A stretch of 64,000 nucleotides of DNA from Cystobasidiomycetes sp. EMM_F5. Taxonomy: Eukaryota. The stretch is from NCBI GenBank assembly GCA_051047955.1, contig JBPGPT010000001.1:930001-994000 (forward strand), read 5' to 3'. This document shows positions 7,422 through 47,211 of the stretch, in pieces (positions within the stretch are counted from its first letter, which is position 1; each line of letters opens with the position of its first letter). The translations under genes were made by a program, and so were the position numbers. The notes beneath the pieces were generated by a model. That model searched no databases. It was given only the letters and a program-made list of their open reading frames with translations, and was not told the DNA's origin.

Positions 7422-9968
7422 ATGAAGATAAAGCTAAAGGGCGCGTACGCTCGCGCAATACCGCCGGAAGCAGAGACGGCCACTCCACACCCACCTCTGC
7501 ATGCTAGCACATCGACTGTGCATTCTCCCGAGCTGCGTCCTCCCTCGCCGAGCAAGAGTGTTGTCAATTTAGACAGCGCCGGAACAGTTTTAAACGACGT
7601 TCGAAATGCAGGCAACAATGGGCAGGGACAGGCGAACGTACACCAAGGTGACGAGGATGATCCGAATGGATTGTCAAACGGCCAAAACGGCAGAGACGAG
7701 GACGACGACGAGGAGTATGCCGAATCCAGCTCGTCGCATTCCGACAACGAATTCATCAGTGCTCCTCTACCCCTCAACGACAGTTCCGGAGACGAATATC
7801 ATGCCCCTCGGGGAGGACGTGGGCCGGGGCGTCCGAGATCCAACCATCGGACGTCGTCGAGGCGAGAAAGTACGAGATCGTCACGCAGGGATGGTAGCGA
7901 GTCGCTGGAGCCGGTCGAGGTGGGACCTTCCACGCGTCAGCGTATAAGTCTGACGATGAAGGGCCGGCCGTTGAGGGCATCGCGCCGGGATGAAACGACG
8001 CCATTGCAAGCTAGCGGGACAGACGAGGGTGACGATTCTCTCAGAGAAGACGACGAGCAAGATGGAGATAGCGTGCAGAACGTAGGGCAATACAGTAGAG
8101 TCGTAGAAAGCGAGGACGAGGAGGATGGCATGGACGTAGACGATGACAGCCAACAGGATGAAGAGACGACTTCGGTCTTACACGTACACGCATCGGCTAC
8201 AGCGTCAGGCGGTCCCCACAAACGTCCGCAGCAACTTGGACAGGATGCTCAGCGTCGTGGCAGCATGGGAGTCATGGCCAAACAGCGAGCAATCAAGAAT
8301 GGGCAATATGGTTTCGATGGCGACGAACTAATGTTGCCTACCGATCCAGCAGGAGAGGCAAAGGTCGACAGACTCGGGCAACTGCAAGGCGGTAAGCTAC
8401 ACCGCGTCGCACTATACCATGCCGACTGACCAGACTCGCCAGGACGGGAATACAAAGCTCCGACATTCACTTTCCCCACACGCCCGGAGAAGGAGCGCTT
8501 GTATATGCTTGCGATAGATGCCGCAAGATGCGCCGGCTTCCGTGATTCATTGTACTTCTTTAGACGGAATCCATGGATACACAAGTTGACGTGCACGAAT
8601 GAAGAAAAGGAAATTTTGGTGAACAGGGGGAAACTGCACGTCAACCTCAAAACGCGGCAAGTAACGGTGGTTACGGCTCGAAATTGCTTCAAAGTCTTTG
8701 GGGCCAGATTCATCAAAGGTAGTTTCCTTTCCTTCGTTCTGCTTGTACAGCGTTGAAGCTGAGAAAGGGTCCAAACAGGCGGTAAATACGTAGTTGATGA
8801 CTATTACGAAAGTGCAGCCATAGCAAAGGGCCTGAAAGCCGAAGCTCCGGCTTGGTCCGAGGCCTACAATCCTGAAATCGACAATACAACACTTGCGATG
8901 CCAAAAGTTGGTAACTTTGCTCAGAAATTAGGTCCAGGTCGACCGGCCTACATGAAGATTGGCAAGGCGATGGACATGGCTGGCGCCACACGTCTATCCG
9001 CTGCGCCAGACGATGACGACGACATGAACAATCTGACTGCTGAAGAACGAAAGAAACGCGAAGATGCCGCAGACGCCTTGGCTATAGCTGAAGAGGAGAC
9101 ACGGGTTGCGCTCGCGCAAAAGAAAGGCCTGCACAGTCTGCTCGGCCTTCCAGCTGGCTATTCGCCAGCGCAGTTTGGGCTCGTTCCAGCACAGGGCGGG
9201 GCTGGAATCGGTCTCGGACCGGGCATACAGTTTGGATCCAACGGTCAAGCACCTTTCAACGAACAGTGGGAAAAGAGCAAAGCGCGAAAGCCCGCTCCGC
9301 ATATGAACGGACGGAACTGGATGTGGTTCTGGGCCAAGGCGGTCATCGAGACCAACAAAGCTGTGATGAGCGTGCGCAAAGAGTACAGTGCGTATCATCG
9401 TATCACATTGGGGGCCAACTCTGCCGCGGCGCTCGAGGAAGAGGATGCAGGGGTCTGGCCGGTCTCTGAAAGCGAAGACGAATACGAAACCTTGGACGAA
9501 TACTACGCAAGGCAAGGCGTGCCGAGCGCTAATAGCAAAGCGAAGAGTCTCGAATCCGATGATAGGCGGCGGGGTCGTACACCAGATCCAAGTCCACTCG
9601 CTTTACCGACACCGCTCGATCCAAACGTCAAGGCAGAGGCTGATGGAGATGCGGCAGAGACGTCCGCGATGCATGCAGATGGCACGCACAAGAAGAAACG
9701 ACGGAGACGATCTCCACTCCGGGGATTTTACGATCAGCACACTCGTGCACCGATTGTACGGACGGATTCACAACCACTGGGCGTTCTGTCTTGCGAGCGA
9801 GTCGCTGGATTACCCGAGATCTCGTTGGACGTTGCTAGCATTACTCAGAAGGCGCCCGATGCTGTTACAATCAGCAAGCTGGCTGCTGTACGAGGGGTAA
9901 GCCGGCCAGTACGTGCTATGAAATACTTCAGAGCTGATGACCAGCCCTTATCCAGATGGCGACCGTAG
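7422..9968 (+). CDS. Chromatin-remodelling complex subunit, Rsc7/Swp82 (Npl6-like) family
   Basis: Spliced domain DPAGEAKVDRLGQLQGGREYKAPTF..LYMLAIDAARCAGFRDSLYFFRRNP..VTARNCFKVFGARFIK..GKYVVDDYYE. Acidic low-complexity N-terminus. Confidence 0.85.
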
Positions 9969-39635: not shown

Positions 39636-42600
39636 ATGGGTGAGTCTATATAGTGCACTGGACTGCCCCCCTCTCGAAATCTTTGTGTCGGCACATCTCG
39701 TCTGTACTGACTCTGCAGGCCATCCTTACTGAAACTCTTGTTGCGTTAATACAGCAGACTCTGCAGAGATGACAAACGCACACATGGACACGGCAAATGT
39801 CCCGACCGCTGTCGAGGGTGTGTCTGGCTCGAGTGACGGGCAGGATGTCGTCGCCACTCTTCCGAGGCTGGACTCTTTGTCGGGCAACAATGCGCTCGAC
39901 GATGCTAATGAGCACGTCAATATCGACCAGAGTAACCAAGTTGGACAGACCAGCATTCAATCCGCCTCTCTGCCATCCATCTCTACGGAAGCTGATCCCG
40001 GTCCGGCTGGCGCTGCCGTCGCATTAGCAAACATGGTCAGCACTTTAGCAACGACCGATGATTTTCCCATAGACCCATCTCTCATCGCCGAGAATGGCTC
40101 AGCTCGGCCAGCATCTTCCGCCGGTATGATGCCTGGTGCTCGCGTAGAAGAAGCAATCCTCCGGGCGGACGAGCAAGTCTTGCTCGACTCTATCGAACAC
40201 GTACAGACCTTTGTATCGGATCAGAATGAGCGAGCACCTGCTCCATTCTTGAACACTACACTACCTGAAGCTGCTGTAGACGCGGATATGGAGTCTGTTC
40301 TGACGTCTCCACTCGGCTCGACTCTGTCTACCACTCACGACAACTCAACTGCATCGTCCGGGTCAAATGGGCCTTTGGCAAATGTCAATGACGAACACAC
40401 ACTCTCCAACACGTCTACACTTGACAAGTCTGCAGACACTGCAAATAGTAGCGCTGTAGCAGCTTCATCGACTTCGCAAACTAGCGAGAAACCAGTATCG
40501 ACAAGGTCTACGCAGTCACACGCCGCAATGCAGTCTGGGACGCGCGTGCAGAGACAGAGGACAGCCTCAAGCCGGTCAGTAGCGGCAGATACTTCGATGA
40601 ATGTCGCGACAGAGGGACATGAGGATGCTGCCACTACTACTTCCTCTGCGTCTCTCTCAAGGCGCTCGGGCGGACCTCGCTCTCGTAAACCTCCTTCCGC
40701 TTCCTCATCCAACCAAGCGACTTCTGCGGCTGGTCCATCCCGTCCATCAATTGTAGCAAGCAGTACCACTGCTGGGGGTGGAACGAGCAGGACTCGTTCA
40801 TTGGCGCTGCAGAAGGAGCAAAAGGAGAAGGATGCTGAAGCGAAAGCTGCTAGAGCTGCAGCAAGACGAGGAAGAAGAGGTAGGAGAGACCAAAGCGTCT
40901 CGAGCAGCGATGAGGAATCGGAGAGGAGCGCTAGCGCTAGTGCTAGTGCATCTGCTACGGCTACAAGCAGGAACGGGCACGATCACGCTAACGCTCACTC
41001 TCAGAATCTCGTAAAGGTCGAGGATTTGATGGTGCCCGACATGGAAGTGGACGACAAGGACGCCGCTCAAAGCGGCAGAAGGCGCCGCTCAACGAGAGCT
41101 GTTGCGAATGCGACTAACGACAAGATTGCGAATCCTAGTGGGGCTTATGGGAGATCTGGTGGGCTACGAGCTACGATAGGGGAAGAAGAGGAAGACGTCG
41201 ACGGAGATGAAGGAGTCACTCGCTGTATCTGCGGCATCACAGGTAAGGTCTTCGACTTCTCATTGCGTTCTATGCGCCTGACTGATGCATATACCCGTGA
41301 CAGACGAGGATGCAGGCGGCTTCATGATTCAGTGCGAGACGTGTAAAGTCTGGCAGCATGGCCAGTGCGTCGGCTTCAAAACGGAGAATCTATGTCCCGA
41401 TACCTACTATTGCGAATTATGTCGGCCTGACTTACATCCTACACTTCATCGCAAGAAGCATGGTCGCACAAATTCGTCATCTACTAACCGTCCTGTGCTC
41501 GCAAGCAGCGCCAGCGATCAAAATCGACCGGCATCCCCTGGTGCGAAACCGATATCTAGGGATCGTGGGTCTGCGCCCCTGTCTCTTGCGTCGCCAGCCC
41601 TACCTCAACAGCCACAACCACCAACGATGCATCGCGCTCGATCCTCTGCTGATGCTAGTATTATCGCCACTTTTTTGGACCAGAGTAAAGGCTCGCATTC
41701 ACCTTCACCTGGTTCACCGGGGGCGAGCGGCGCGAGCAGTGGGAGCCTGCCTCTGGCTGCTGACGGCAAAAGACCAATGTATCCTGCAACATCTCATCTA
41801 TCAGCACCTCTATCGACTAAACGCCGTAGTACAATGAATTCCCGGGAATCTGCAGCCTTTGACGAGTCGATTATGCTCGCAAACGCTAATGCTATCAAGG
41901 AATCTAAAGCTATGGCAGCAGCAGCAGCTCATCCGGGATCTGGCGCGTTTGATCCCGCCTTGTCTTTGTCTGCTCAGACTGCCGCATACAGAAAAAGAAG
42001 GAAGCTCGACGATTTGTCCCCTGATGTGACAATGGACACTGTAAAGGAGGAAGAAGGGGAGGAAGCCGACGTCCACAATCTACTTGATGCAGATGATGCA
42101 CTAGAAGCCGGTCCAAACGATGAAGCAGACGGAGACATACAGCACGAGGAAGACGGGGATGCTCCACCGGCTCGAAAGCGAGCAAGACGCGGCGGTGTGC
42201 AAAGCCGCACTGCTGCTCGGGGAAGTAGACGAGGTCACACCAGCGGGAAAAGTAGATCCAACCAGAAAGGAGGGGATGATGGTGATGCTCCAAACCAGGC
42301 GGACGGCGAAGTCGATGCAGAGGATAGTGCGACGGCCGGCCAGAAGAGGAAGCGCACGGCTGGTCAGCCTAATGCGAGCCAGTAAGTCGTAGCACAAATC
42401 AGGCGCGTTTATCTCAATTCTAAGAGAGTCAAATTACCACTTGCGCAGGACAAACAGGGCGTTAGGTGCACCAGAAGATGCGGCTGCCTTTGTGACAGAT
42501 AATAACTCATCATCCGAAAGCCTTTTGGTTAGTGGAGATCAGCAAAGCTCCGTGCCCCTCGCCCGCAACAGCCTGAACACAAGTGTCGATCGAAATAATG

Positions 42601-44078: not shown

Positions 44079-47000
44079 TCAGCTTGCTACATTTCCGCTA
44101 CAATCGTTCGGAGCTGTCATACTGAGGGCTGCCAAATTTGTCTGGCTGGGATGCCGCTTGAGTTCTGCAAGCCGCTCCTGCAACTTCGGAACCTTGCCAC
44201 AGGAATGCGTCAGTCGGACAAGATAAATGTGCGTCAGTCGTCCACGTACCTCCAGCAATTTCTGCTCGAGCAGTTGCTTTTCCTCCTGAAGTCTGCAACA
44301 ACAGGACTACATAGTCAGCGCTAATGCATATCGAAACACGATGGCGCTTACGCGAGGCGCTTTTCGGCATCGAGAGGACCAAAGAAGTAGCCACCCTGCC
44401 CATCAAATTGTAGAATGGTATTATGATACCTGTCGAAAAGGTAGCTTGAATTAGAAAATGACGTGAAGAGCTACGATCTCAAGACTGACTTCCATAGGGA
44501 CGGCCGGTGCGAAACTGTCAGCATTGTTATTCCAAGCTCTGTTGCGTGGTCAAAGCTGACAGGAAAATAGCAATTCAGCGACGTTCATGCTGGTTCCTGT
44601 AAGTTGCAAAAGCGTACATTATTTTCTCGAGCTCCAGCGTAACAGCACTCGTGCACTCGTCCAAGATGGCATACTTCGGACGATGGTAGAAGAGGCGCAC
44701 CATCGCTATGATCTGCTTGTCGCCCCCGGAAAGAGCGTCTCTCCACTCGCGTTGCGTATTCCATCCACCCTCTCGCTCAACGATTTGCTCGAACTGCACG
44801 ACTCTCAATAGATTAGATAGATCCTCGTCCGTCTTGCCTGCAGCTTGCATATCCGCCTGTGTATCGGGGTAGATAATCTGATCACGTAGGGTCCCGAGTG
44901 ATAGGTATGGCCGTTGCGGAATATAAGTGAAGTCAGAAGACGGCGGTTTGGTCACCGTTCCGCCATAGACTGGCCACAGTCCGCCAAGGAGGCGGAACAT
45001 GCTGCCTGTAATTGCACAGTGCGGACAGTGTCAGTTGATGAGACACTGGCTATGCAAGACCGATGAGCAGCCGACTAACTCTTGCCGCAACCATTTGGCC
45101 CGACGATGAGAAGATGATCCTGAGTGCGCCCAAGCAAAATCTGTTAGTCCACAACGCCACGGTTATACATACGGAAAGAAGTACGGACTCCCGGCGATAT
45201 CTTGAAGCTTAGTTGCTTGAGCAGTATGTCACCGTTCGGACTGACGATGGGGACACGATCAAACGTAATACTACCGTCCCTTGAAGGCTGTATGACTCCC
45301 TGTCCCTGAAGCACCCGAGCATTCTCTCCTGTTCCAGCAGAAGAGACCAATTTCTTTTGGAATTTACGCTGCTTGATGTCTTCCATTGTACTTATAAACT
45401 CGTCTACGCGTTGCGTATAGCCTGCCAGCTCTGCCAATTCTTTGTATGAATAGAGAATGCGACCGAAGGCGTCGGAAGCTGAGAGGAGCAGTCTTCTATT
45501 CGTGATGAAGCCTTGATGAACGCAGATCACTATGCGAAGTAGCTTGTCCTTCAACAAATATCCACTCACCCTCGGTACGGCTGCCGAAATCGCTCTGGCC
45601 AGGCATTCCCGAAAGTTTGCCTCCAAAAACGGGGAGCGCACAAATGATTAGACCTAAACTTCCCCACCACCACTTGATAATACCATCCTCCACCATCCCG
45701 TGCCACAGCCTCATCCGAAAGATGCGGTTGACGTGCCTGATGAGGGTGAAACTGTCAATTGGGCGGAAATATTCAGCTAAAACTACGAAGATATCGACGA
45801 TCGAAGCTCAGATTTTCAACTGACTATTGCCGTTCTATAATGTTCTTCTCAATTTCTTGCCCGTCGTAGAATGCGACTAGTCGAGTACAGCGGTCAGATA
45901 AGGATAGATGTTCCCCAACGACACGAGAAGCTTACTCTCCTCTGCGTTCTCAATAAGTCTGGAGTGGGCGAATCGGAACTCCCCTTCGAGTCTCTGTTCC
46001 TCAGCTGCGAATCTGCCAAAGGGTGGCGTGAGGAAGCGTACTGTAGACGCGGACAATGTGAAGGCAGAAGGAGATTGGAAATTGAGCAGCGTCAGGATTG
46101 GTGGAAGCGTTTGAGATTTGGCCCCGTCAAAAGAGGCAGCATGAATGAATTGTCGAGTAAAAAAGTACGACAGAATACAAAGCAGCGTAAAGGTGGAAGA
46201 GTGGGATCACATTGGAGTAGTTAAATCATGAAGGACATCGACAGCCAAGTGCAAGTTTAAATTGGAAGCAGAGAATGCATGAGCGGGATAGGAGCATATT
46301 GAAAGGGGTATTATGCAAGACATTGAGTTTCAGCCGCGAGGTACGATACAGGCATAGTGAAGGATTGCAGTCAGCCGCCATCACGAATGCCTCTCTGAAT
46401 AGTATATAGACCACCCACACAACCACGCCGACAGCTGGACTGTAATTGTGAGACCAATGAGACCCTCTGGTCCGACATTTCTCGACAGCTGGAGGTTGTA
46501 GATTGTGCAATCGAGAACGGGCTTGGCGATATTTGAATAGATTTCTGCGAGGGACGCTGAAAACTTTGCGATATCCTGCGTTATGAGCTGATCAGGATTG
46601 CGTATCCTGTCGTCGAGGTTACCGAGGGCATAGAAGGTATTGTCCGAGAGGTACTGCTGCTGTACGTAATTTGTCAGTCGGGTACGGTATGTGAGTGCGA
46701 GTTTCGACTGGAGGTACGAGAGGAACGAGTTTGTGTACGTTGCTGGTACGGCTACGAGCATCCAGGTGGCGATACGTCGGATAAAGACCCTGCCCTGACC
46801 GCGGACAAGAGCTGCAACGATTGTCCCGTCGAGATGGGCGACGTAGAGGCTCAGGAAAGTGCGAAATACGAGAAAGAAAGAGTGGAGAATAATCATTGAG
46901 GCTTCTTTGGATCTGTAAGAGGGTACGACGATGGCGAGGATACGCTGGAGACGCTCGAAGAAGGCGGCGTCCACCTCTACTCGAGGCCCTTTCCGCCGGG

Positions 47001-47211
47001 ATGACCTTGACGATGACGACGAAACCGCTGCCGACGACGACGCCCGCTTGGCTTTCGGTTTCAGACCCTTGTAGGTGCTGTAGAGTGCCCACCAGGTGTA
47101 GATGGCCATAAAGGCGTACTGGCGTGTGCGGGGATGGCGCGCATAGGCTGCGGTAAGCCGCTTGAGGACATGGACGTCTCTGTCGACGCTGAGCCCGGCG
47201 AGCGCAGCCAT
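44079..47211 (-). CDS. Peroxisomal ABCD half-transporter (Pxa2/Pxa1-like fatty acyl-CoA importer)
   Basis: [17 protein letters not shown]-like motif [17 protein letters not shown], Walker [25 protein letters not shown] and ILDECTSAV. Confidence 0.92.

What the first reader, a model, noticed from the sequence alone, without database searches (positions are those of the whole stretch)
46041..46418. 378-nt intron with an about 348-nt AG-free tail after a normally placed branch point (ABCD transporter)
Seen: the first intron of the ABCD gene runs from donor GTGGGT at 46418 to CTACAG at 46041 and joins SAWL|LRFLTPP. It is about six times the usual intron length here. A consensus GCTGAC branch point (A at 46371) lies 48 nt from the donor, as in a standard short intron. 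The sense strand then has no AG from 46390 to 46043 (no CT on the + strand), where chance would give roughly 10-20 depending on composition. A second CCTGAC lies at 46091-46096. Established: long AG-exclusion zones mark distant branch points in metazoans, and a long branch-to-acceptor distance favours first-step-only spliceosomal cleavage in fission yeast telomerase RNA. Inference: AG appears to be purged by selection, so the spliceosome branches early and must span about 330 nt. This could act as a regulated splicing switch or release a long-tailed lariat RNA.
Basis: partly seen in the sequence, partly recalled or inferred. Interest (0 to 1): 0.75.

Follow-up and report, generated by a model that had tools for sequence, protein, structure and literature searches.

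The report
Long AG-free intron in fungal ABCD gene
A fungal peroxisomal-transporter gene has one intron six times the usual length that contains no AG at all before its true end, most likely because any extra AG would be mistaken for the splice acceptor; which branch point it uses is still unknown.

Summary
On the minus strand, 46418..46041 is a 378-nt GT..AG intron. It joins SAWL|LRFLTPP in an ABCD (PF06472 + PF00005) gene of a Pucciniomycotina-like basidiomycete, and 10 of 10 homologues are collinear across the junction. The gene's other nine introns are 57-74 nt. From 46390 to 46043 (348 nt) the sense strand has no AG, against 10.2 expected. GA (9), AA (19) and GG (7) are at expectation, and 0 of 200,000 shuffles lacked AG. 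It is the longest run free of any dinucleotide in the window.

The intron sits at an old phase-1 position shared by 7 of 32 metagenomic relatives, where it is 48-131 nt. The nearest relative has a 131-nt, also AG-free version, but its branch site lies 18 nt from the acceptor.

The AG purge therefore looks selected. That the branch forms at GCTGAC (+48) and spans 330 nt is not shown. CCTGAC (-51) and TTCAC (-18) are alternatives, and fungal data make spacings over 30-50 nt inefficient. No RNA evidence covers this intron. It is a fungal member of the AG-exclusion-zone class; a switch or lariat-RNA role is unsupported.

The parts
46419..47211 (-). Exon 1 of the ABCD (Pxa-type) half-transporter gene, from the first ATG of the open frame to the last base before the donor. 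It ends ...TVQLSAWL plus 1 nt (phase 1).
   Evidence: The open frame is listed and its translation. PF06472 ABC_membrane_2 matches at E 5.6e-58, profile positions 1-172 of 269. There are 665 homologues at E<=1e-10; the best are Pucciniomycotina ABCD/Pxa proteins at 54-76% identity.
46041..46418 (-). Intron 1, 378 nt, GTGGGT...CTACAG, phase 1.
   Evidence: A homologue-guided model picks it. 10 of 10 homologues are collinear across the junction. No other AG exists that could serve as an acceptor.
46413..46418 (-). 5' splice site GTGGGT.
46391..46397 (-). CAGAGAG: the only three internal AGs, at intron positions 23-28. They lie upstream of every branch-like motif and too close to the donor to act as acceptors.
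46370..46375 (-). Upstream consensus branch motif GCTGAC. Its A is at 46371, 48 nt from the donor and 330 nt from the intron end. GCTGACT is the same heptamer as the presumed branch site of intron 9.
46329..46334 (-). Second upstream branch-like motif, GCTGAA (within a repeated 8-mer, GCGGCTGA). CTGAA is the best available motif in introns 3 and 7 of this gene.
   Evidence: intron sequences (motif choice in introns 3 and 7 made by eye)
46043..46390 (-). AG exclusion zone: 348 nt, 65.5% pyrimidine, no AG. It is predicted to be no more structured than shuffled sequence.
   Evidence: Fold of the whole intron: z = +0.97, and 83 of 100 shuffles fold at least as well.
46091..46096 (-). Downstream consensus branch motif CCTGAC. 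Its A is at 46092, 51 nt from the intron end.
46058..46062 (-). Weak branch-like TTCAC (yTnAy). Its A is 18 nt from the intron end, inside the 15-25 nt range seen in the gene's short introns.
   Evidence: range
46041..46046 (-). 3' splice site CTACAG.
45936..46040 (-). Exon 2, (L)[34 protein letters not shown].
45752..45824 (-). Intron 3 (73 nt, GTCAGT..TGACAG). It is the only intron of the gene with direct evidence of splicing.
   Evidence: A contig of run X1 joins 45751 to 45825, skipping 73 nt with ends CT..AC on the + strand.

Best explanation
This is a genuine spliceosomal intron at an old, conserved phase-1 position of a basidiomycete ABCD gene. In this lineage it has grown to 378 nt.

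Its whole body downstream of position 28 is an AG exclusion zone held by purifying selection. The intron carries branch-competent motifs far upstream: a perfect GCTGAC 48 nt from the donor, which is the spacing of an ordinary short intron here, then GCTGAA at +89, and looser yTnAy motifs every 80 nt or less. In this organism the acceptor appears to be the first AG about 10 nt or more after the branch. Any new AG would therefore complete a premature intron and destroy the reading frame.

I think productive splicing most likely branches near the 3' end, at CCTGAC (-51) or TTCAC (-18). The upstream GCTGAC would then act as an 'early' competing branch site. Its intermediates can only be ligated at the one true AG or be discarded.

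Shown: the intron, the AG void and its statistical specificity, the conserved position, and the motif positions. Inferred: selection, the first-AG rule, and which branch is productive.
For: - AG specificity: 0 AG observed vs 10.2 expected, with GA, AA and GG at expectation; 0 of 200,000 shuffles lacked AG. It is the longest dinucleotide-free run in the window.
- AG is not avoided in this organism's introns in general. The nine short introns of the gene carry 0-4 internal AGs each, 22 in total. Sixteen other candidate introns carry 44 AG in 946 nt.
- In the nine short introns the acceptor follows the best branch-like motif by 15-25 nt. AGs 2, 5 and 7 nt after the branch A are skipped in introns 5, 8 and 9 (read by eye from those sequences).
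- Five strict or near-strict branch-like sites and 12 yTnAy motifs are spread along the intron.
- Early or distal branching is reported as common in introns over 150 nt in S. pombe and the basidiomycete C. neoformans. [quoted passage not shown]
- S. pombe reporters with spacing of 30 nt or more splice poorly even in wild type (PMC9508853, passages read).
- The nearest relative, L023, keeps its branch motif 18 nt from the acceptor in the orthologous intron.
Against: - If only branch motifs with a reach of 50-60 nt mattered, about 108-124 nt of the tail would be unconstrained. That stretch should hold 3-5 AG (my estimate from the densities), yet it has none. This favours a long reach from upstream branches.
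- If upstream-branched intermediates were always discarded, AGs between the two CTGAC sites would be nearly neutral. The void therefore hints that upstream branches contribute to product.
- In the human case with the same geometry, the distal site is the functional one, not the -51 site.
- 51 nt is itself twice the largest branch-to-acceptor spacing in the gene's other introns.
- L023's intron is AG-free upstream of its proximal branch without any strict upstream motif. Neither this model nor the distant-branch model explains that.
Confidence: 0.45

Rival explanations
1. True distant branch point. The branch forms at GCTGAC (A at 46371) soon after transcription of the 5' end. The second step then finds the first AG 330 nt downstream along an unstructured, pyrimidine-rich tract. 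This would be a human-type AG-exclusion-zone intron in a fungus.
For: - The motif is a perfect consensus at the 5' end of the void, 48 nt from the donor. The strict branch motifs of seven of the nine short introns lie 37-49 nt from their donors.
- The void covers the full 348 nt, including stretches without strict branch-like motifs.
- The intron is no more structured than shuffled sequence (z +0.97). Human distant-branch regions are likewise reported as unstructured, unlike S. cerevisiae distant-branch introns, which rely on structure and contain silent AGs (PMC3239191, passages read).
- PTB exon 11 uses the branch at -351 and not the candidate at -51 (PMC1431707).
- The 30 nt after the motif are 67% pyrimidine.
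Against: - No branch or lariat data exist for this intron.
- Fungal evidence points to poor second-step efficiency beyond about 30-50 nt. The S. cerevisiae spliceosome is reported as unable to scan processively.
- Competing CCTGAC (-51) and TTCAC (-18) exist.
- CTRAC is expected about 0.9 times by chance in 378 nt of this composition (my arithmetic), so its presence alone is weak evidence.
- L023 shows the AG-free state with a proximal branch.
Confidence: 0.28
2. First-step-only or throttled splicing. The branch forms at 46371, but the long spacing stalls exon ligation, so intermediates are discarded. This would work as spliceosome-mediated decay or a regulated switch on transporter output, or it would release a long-tailed lariat RNA with its own role.
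For: - In S. pombe TER1, a long branch-to-acceptor distance together with a strong branch site causes release after step 1 (PMC4299874, passages read).
- Branch-to-acceptor distance predicts Prp43-dependent discard of intermediates in C. neoformans.
Against: - Exon 1 is ordinary coding sequence of an essential part of the transmembrane domain.
- If these intermediates were dead ends, AGs in the tail would not be selected against.
- No known RNA family matches (0 matches at E<=10) and no stable fold is predicted.
- There are no expression data for this intron.
Confidence: 0.07
3. The AG-free, pyrimidine-rich stretch is a by-product of something other than acceptor choice. It might be a protein-binding pyrimidine element or intronic enhancer shared with relatives. 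Or it might be a recent AG-poor insertion or expansion that has not yet decayed.
For: - The orthologous intron of the nearest relative is also enlarged (131 nt), 64% pyrimidine and AG-free over 124 nt (3.4 expected), although its branch motif is proximal.
- L023's two other long introns (172 and 106 nt, approximate model) carry 7 and 4 internal AGs.
Against: - Only AG is missing. GA, AA and GG are at expectation in both species, which a simple pyrimidine tract or decayed CT repeat would not give.
- There are no tandem or internal repeats.
- There is no copy elsewhere in the window.
- No motif is enriched beyond chance: four copies of CCAAT, but a top 5-mer count of 4 arises in 87.5% of shuffles.
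- The two introns do not align, and exon DNA is only 68-76% identical, so a shared recent insertion is excluded.
Confidence: 0.1
4. Chance. The stretch is a long, purine-poor intron that simply happens to lack AG.
For: - The sense strand is purine-poor (34.5%).
- Runs free of other dinucleotides reach 323 nt (TT) and 274 nt (CC) in the window.
Against: - The Poisson probability of zero at 10.2 expected is about 4e-5, and 0 of 200,000 shuffles reached zero.
- The missing dinucleotide is the one with a known role, on the sense strand.
- The void is bounded exactly by the acceptor.
- The relative shows the same void (P about 0.03).
Confidence: 0.05

Closest known systems
Human distant-branch-point exons with AG exclusion zones (Gooding et al. 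2006, PMC1431707), e.g. PTB exon 11
   Same: Both have an AG-free zone of about 350 nt ending at the acceptor. Both have a consensus CUGAC-type branch motif at its 5' end and a second candidate at -51. The tract is pyrimidine-rich and unstructured, and AGs reappear upstream of the zone.
   Different: Here the branch is unmapped. The organism is a short-intron fungus with no exon-definition context. The upstream motif lies only 48 nt from the donor, so nearly the whole intron is the zone. No alternative exon is involved.
Early or distal branching in long introns of S. pombe and Cryptococcus neoformans (spliceosome profiling, bioRxiv 10.1101/224170)
   Same: The host is a basidiomycete, the intron is over 150 nt, and a branch-competent site lies far from the acceptor. 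The expected consequence is a slow or failed second step.
   Different: Those are measured branching events, not sequence voids. In the passages I read, no AG-free zone is described for them.
Branchpoint-distant 3' splice sites in S. pombe that need Sde2, Cactin/Cay1 and Tls1 (PMC9508853)
   Same: Both are fungal introns whose branch-to-acceptor spacing exceeds the norm. The spliceosome prefers a branch-near AG when one is offered, which is the basis for selection against extra AGs.
   Different: 'Distant' there means about 24-39 nt. Here the spacing would be 51 nt or 330 nt. Whether this organism has those factors could not be checked, because no genome is held.
S. cerevisiae distant-branch introns (COF1, UBC13; PMC3239191)
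   Same: These are fungal introns with branch-to-acceptor spacing over 50 nt (UBC13: 155 nt).
   Different: They rely on a stem between branch and acceptor and contain masked AGs. This intron is AG-free and shows no predicted structure.
Spliceosomal cleavage of S. pombe telomerase RNA TER1 (PMC4299874)
   Same: A long branch-to-acceptor distance acts as a brake on the second step.
   Different: TER1 releases a functional non-coding 5' exon. Here the 5' exon is coding sequence of a membrane domain that is useless alone, and no evidence of cleavage products exists.

Membership tests
AG-exclusion-zone / distant-branch-point intron (Gooding et al. 2006) | AG-free zone of 100 nt or more immediately upstream of the acceptor, beyond what composition explains | tested here: met
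   348 nt with 0 AG vs 10.2 expected. The control dinucleotides GA, AA and GG are at expectation.
AG-exclusion-zone / distant-branch-point intron (Gooding et al. 2006) | [quoted passage not shown] | tested here: met
   GCTGAC has its A at intron position 48, 20 nt into the zone. The next 30 nt are 67% pyrimidine.
AG-exclusion-zone / distant-branch-point intron (Gooding et al. 2006) | No obvious branch candidate close to the acceptor | tested here: not met
   CCTGAC lies at -51 and TTCAC at -18. The verified PTB case also had a -51 candidate that proved non-functional.
AG-exclusion-zone / distant-branch-point intron (Gooding et al. 2006) | Branch experimentally mapped or shown necessary at the distal site | not testable with these tools
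   No run on record as RNA holds the stretch. The two runs laid do not cover the intron.
AG-exclusion-zone / distant-branch-point intron (Gooding et al. 2006) | Zone and distal branch conserved in orthologues | tested here: inconclusive
   The nearest relative, L023, has an AG-free orthologous intron (124 nt, 3.4 AG expected), but its only strict branch motif is 18 nt from the acceptor. The four other distinct relatives with this intron have 48-62 nt versions.
First-step-only spliceosomal cleavage (TER1 type) | The released 5' exon is the functional product, and splicing rarely completes | not testable with these tools
   No RNA data exist. Exon 1 encodes profile positions 1-172 of 269 of PF06472, which argues against a stand-alone product.
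Intron-hosted small RNA (snoRNA and the like) | Match to a known RNA family, or a stable conserved fold, inside the intron | tested here: not met
   Rfam gives 0 matches at E<=10 over 45500-47000. The fold z-score is +0.97.
Spliceosomal twin intron (stwintron) or hidden exon | An internal intron or exon with its own acceptor AG inside the interval | tested here: not met
   There is no AG between intron positions 29 and 376. 10 of 10 homologues have no extra residues at the junction. The stwintron definition is recalled, not taken from a call.
Introner-like or transposon-derived intron | Multiple similar copies in other introns of the genome | tested here: inconclusive
   There is no second copy in the 64-kb window; the best non-self hit is 40 nt at 77.5% identity, E 0.019. 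The genome is not held. The intron position is old and shared with relatives, which argues against recent gain.
ABCD (peroxisomal Pxa-type) ABC half-transporter | ABC_membrane_2 (PF06472) domain followed by an ABC_tran (PF00005) domain, collinear with known ABCD proteins | tested here: met
   PF06472 at E 5.6e-58 and PF00005 at E 6.3e-06. tblastn of five homologues covers the gene from 47169 to about 44150.

The most novel reading that the evidence does not exclude
A basidiomycete fungus uses a human-type distant branch point. The branch forms 48 nt from the donor, and exon ligation finds the first AG 330 nt away by moving along an unstructured, pyrimidine-rich, AG-free tract. In the papers I read, the fungal spacings are far shorter: 155 nt for UBC13, the second-longest in S. 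cerevisiae (structure-assisted), and under about 40 nt in S. pombe reporters. If true, processive acceptor search would be older than animals. This intron could also throttle peroxisomal fatty-acid import through second-step discard.
Probability: 0.25. Interest if true: 0.65.

Novelty: new member of a known kind. Interest (0 to 1): 0.4.

Why it matters
AG exclusion zones are the accepted sequence signature of distant branch points in animals. In the fungi studied so far, acceptors lie close to the branch, and longer spacings either fail or need RNA structure. A 348-nt, AG-specific void in a short-intron basidiomycete would be a natural substrate for two questions. Can a fungal spliceosome search hundreds of nucleotides for its acceptor? 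How do rare long introns survive in genomes built for 60-nt introns?

My searches found no paper describing such a zone in a fungus (a full-text library of open papers, listings and selected passages only), but they are far from exhaustive. As it stands this is one locus with strong statistics, a suggestive second species and no RNA evidence.

Tried and rejected
- **Whole genome.** None is held, so no genome-wide scan of AG-free tails was possible.
- **RNA evidence.** No RNA holder is listed. The two runs laid (X1, X2) cover 45600-45866 and 46553-46753 only, not the intron.
- **First metagenome scan.** The scan with exon 1 alone found no relative.
- **Known RNA families.** None matched.
- **Structure bridging branch and acceptor.** None is predicted.
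- **Repeated or mobile element.** There is no copy in the window, no tandem repeat, and only one 11-nt two-copy direct repeat with no inverted repeats.
- **CCAAT.** It occurs four times and looked enriched (P 0.00075 alone). A top 5-mer count of 4 arises in 87.5% of shuffles, so I dropped it.
- **Decayed pyrimidine repeat.** Rejected because GA, AA and GG are not depleted.
- **Hidden exon or twin intron.** Impossible without an internal AG, and homologues show no extra residues.
- **Ancestral 65-nt intron followed by lost coding sequence.** Read by eye, the frame after such an acceptor closes within about 50 codons, and homologues have no insertion. Rejected.
- **Target-site-like repeat.** The last bases of exon 1 and of the intron share 8 of 10 nt (TGTCsGCGT, by eye), and tblastn extends 'SAS' into the intron. 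I judged this chance-level and did not pursue it.
- **Alignment with L023's intron.** The two introns show no alignment beyond a 12-nt block.
- **Other long introns in the window.** All 11 ORF-bridging candidates over 110 nt hold 7-39 internal AGs. At least three are composites that skip known ABCD exons, so no verified long intron is available for comparison.
- **Second AG-free run on the minus strand.** The run at 7545-7730 (185 nt) looks like an acidic coding stretch of the + strand, not an intron (by eye).
- **Earlier notes of this scan.** Nothing on this genome or on related sequence.
Full report
**1. What is there**

The minus strand between about 47211 and 44150 encodes an ABCD-type (Pxa-like) ABC half-transporter.
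- Exon 1 matches PF06472 (E 5.6e-58, profile positions 1-172 of 269), and a later exon matches PF00005.
- A search with exon 1 found 665 proteins at E<=1e-10. The best are ABCD/Pxa proteins of Pucciniomycotina (Cystobasidium, Mixia, Melampsora, Rhodotorula and others) at 54-76% identity.
- The host is therefore a basidiomycete of that subphylum, with no close relative in the collection.
- No whole genome is held for the window.

**2. Gene model and junction**

tblastn of five homologues gives collinear blocks from 47169 to about 44150. A homologue-guided greedy splice model gives ten introns: 378, 59, 73, 58, 69, 74, 62, 60, 59 and a less certain 57 nt.

For the first intron, all 10 homologues examined read ...VQ(A/G/L)SA(A/V/S)(L/V)L(R/K)...TP(P/A/S)FG... 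straight across the join. The window reads ...[16 protein letters not shown]. No residues are missing, and the split codon is T|TA (phase 1).

Intron 3 (45824..45752) is directly confirmed. A contig of public run X1 joins 45751 to 45825, skipping 73 nt with ends CT..AC on the + strand. No run covers intron 1.

**3. The observation**

- The only internal AGs are three in CAGAGAG, at intron positions 22-28.
- From position 29 to 376 (46390..46043, 348 nt) there is none.
- The tail is 65.5% pyrimidine (A 68, G 52, C 109, T 119).
- Expected AG is 10.2. The other purine-purine steps are normal: GA 9 vs 10.2, AA 19 vs 13.3, GG 7 vs 7.8.
- 0 of 200,000 mononucleotide shuffles lacked AG.
- This rules out a plain pyrimidine tract or a decayed CT repeat as the cause.
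- On the + strand the CT-free run of 349 is the longest run free of any of the 16 dinucleotides in the window. The next are TT 323 and CC 274, and there is no AG-free run of 150 or more on the + strand.

AG is not avoided in this organism's introns generally.
- The nine short ABCD introns hold 22 internal AGs.
- Sixteen other ORF-bridging candidate introns (unverified models; median 61.5 nt, range 48-101) hold 44 AG in 946 inner nt. That predicts about 16 in 348 nt. Their longest AG-free tail is 54 nt.
- I found no other credible long intron in the window for comparison. All 11 candidates over 110 nt hold 7-39 AGs, and several are known composites.

**4. Anatomy**

Strict or near-strict branch-like motifs in intron 1:

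| Motif | Position of branch A from donor | Distance to intron end |
|---|---|---|
| GCTGAC | 48 | 330 |
| GCTGAA | 89 | 289 |
| TTTAAC | 198 | 180 |
| TTTGAC | 292 | 86 |
| CCTGAC | 327 | 51 |

- With the loose yTnAy pattern there are 12 sites, never more than about 80 nt apart. One is TTCAC, 18 nt from the end.
- In the gene's short introns a strict motif is found in seven of nine. Where it is credible, it lies 37-49 nt from the donor and 17-25 nt from the acceptor.
- For the remaining introns I picked looser motifs by eye (CTGAA, GTGAT), 15-21 nt from the acceptor.
- AGs 2, 5 and 7 nt after the branch A (introns 5, 8, 9) are passed over.
- So the 5' 50 nt of intron 1 look like a normal short intron that lacks its acceptor. 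Both 3' candidates are also plausible, although 51 nt is twice the usual spacing.
- The intron folds no better than shuffled sequence: -64.7 vs -69.4 +/- 4.9 kcal/mol, z +0.97, and 83 of 100 shuffles fold at least as well.
- It matches no Rfam family at E<=10.
- It has no tandem or meaningful internal repeats and no second copy in the window.

**5. Relatives**

A metagenome scan with exon 1 alone found nothing. A scan with an alignment of seven homologue segments plus the window returned 37 loci.
- 32 of the 37 loci cover the junction codon.
- 7 of those 32 (five distinct sequences: L023, L025, L026, L031=L032, L033=L034) carry a phase-1 intron in exactly the same codon.
- 25 of the 32 do not. 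That group includes L024, L027 and L030, which have introns elsewhere. L001-L020 show no intron over the 170 aligned residues (L002 and L003 carry a 3-residue insertion) and may be cDNA or intron-poor taxa.
- The position is therefore old.
- Lengths are 48, 58, 58, 60, 62, 62 and 131 nt, so the 378-nt state is a lineage-specific enlargement.

The 131-nt case, L023, is the nearest relative available.
- It is 74.5% identical to the end of exon 1 and 91% to exon 2. It is 90% identical to Cystobasidium minutum P0001 over residues 144-256.
- Its intron is 64% pyrimidine and has no AG between the donor's GTGAG and the acceptor. Over those 124 nt, 3.4 AG are expected, while GA is 3, AA 4 and GG 3.
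- Its only strict branch motif, GCTGACG, lies 18 nt from the acceptor.
- Two other long introns in my approximate L023 model (172 and 106 nt) carry 7 and 4 internal AGs, all upstream of their branch motifs.
- The two species' introns do not align, and exon DNA is 68-76% identical. The shared AG-free state is therefore not inherited sequence.
- Taken alone, L023's void has P of about 0.03.

**6. Interpretation**

The AG void is too specific and too large for chance. It is bounded exactly by the acceptor and concerns the one dinucleotide that defines acceptors. I take purifying selection against premature acceptors as established at about 0.85.

Why every AG should be harmful is less clear. Two versions compete.

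(a) The productive branch is 3'-proximal (CCTGAC -51 or TTCAC -18). Upstream motifs, above all the perfect GCTGAC at the ideal donor distance, are early or competing branch sites that any nearby AG would turn into a complete mis-spliced intron.
- Fungal data favour this version.
- S. pombe reporters with spacing of 30 nt or more splice poorly, and a branch-near AG beats a distant one (PMC9508853).
- In C. neoformans, early branching is common in introns over 150 nt, and spacings over 50 nt 'may be prohibitively large' (bioRxiv 10.1101/224170).
- S. cerevisiae cannot scan processively and uses structure instead (PMC3239191).
- L023's proximal branch points the same way.

(b) The branch really forms at +48 and ligation reaches 330 nt.
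- The void covers stretches with no strict branch motif within 50-60 nt.
- AGs between the two CTGAC sites would be nearly neutral unless upstream-branched intermediates yield product.
- The tract is unstructured, like human distant-branch regions.
- The human PTB exon 11 intron has the same geometry and uses the -351 site, not the -51 site (PMC1431707).

I put (a) at 0.45 and (b) at 0.28, plus 0.07 for a first-step-limited variant of (b). A non-splicing element gets 0.10 and chance 0.05. L023's void upstream of a proximal branch is not well explained by either (a) or (b) and remains open.

**7. Comparison with the known, and novelty**

In form this is an AG exclusion zone as defined for human distant-branch exons. 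Two defining features are met: the zone itself, and a consensus branch with pyrimidines at its 5' end. One is not met, because proximal candidates exist. The decisive one, a mapped branch, is untestable here.

It is not TER1-like in product, not a snoRNA host, and not a twin intron. It shows no sign of being a mobile introner within the window.

My searches turned up no fungal AG exclusion zone (open-access full text, listings plus selected passages). The Fyv6 paper remarks only that AGs are typically depleted between branch and acceptor in yeast introns (PMC11651659).

I therefore rate it a new member of a known kind, of moderate interest. The statistics are strong and a second species is suggestive.

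Noticed in passing
window 45600-45866; run X1: Run X1 is labelled 'DNA?', yet it holds a 253-nt contig that skips intron 3 exactly (45752-45824). It therefore contains cDNA-like sequence of this organism at over 99% identity. X2 holds a 201-nt exon-1 piece with one G>C difference at 46682.
   Followed up: partly
window 45824..45819 and 44489..44484 (minus strand): GTCAGT serves as donor in introns 3 and 8 of the gene, and in several other candidate introns of the window. In fission yeasts this donor is reported as very rare (1-3 of more than 5,000 introns) and inhibitory for the second step in TER1 (PMC4299874).
   Followed up: no
window introns 45188..45120, 44489..44430, 44351..44293 (minus strand): AGs lying 2, 5 and 7 nt after the presumed branch A are bypassed in favour of AGs 20-23 nt away. 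This suggests a minimum branch-to-acceptor distance of roughly 8-10 nt in this organism.
   Followed up: partly
L023:3035-3165: The nearest metagenomic relative (Cystobasidium-like) has an enlarged 131-nt, 64% pyrimidine, AG-free intron at the same codon, with its branch motif only 18 nt from the acceptor. Its other long introns hold AGs at normal density.
   Followed up: yes
window 46419-46434 vs 46041-46056 (minus strand): The last bases of exon 1 and the last bases of the intron share 8 of 10 nt (TGTCsGCGT), so tblastn extends the exon-2 match into the intron as 'SAS'. This is probably chance, but it resembles a boundary repeat.
   Followed up: partly
window 42085-42408 (+ strand): A 323-nt run without TT, the second-longest dinucleotide-free run in the window. 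It probably lies in coding sequence with biased codon use. Not examined.
   Followed up: no
window 7545-7730: The second-longest CT-free run on the + strand (185 nt; AG-free on the minus strand). By eye it is a GAC/GAG-rich acidic coding stretch of the + strand rather than an intron.
   Followed up: partly
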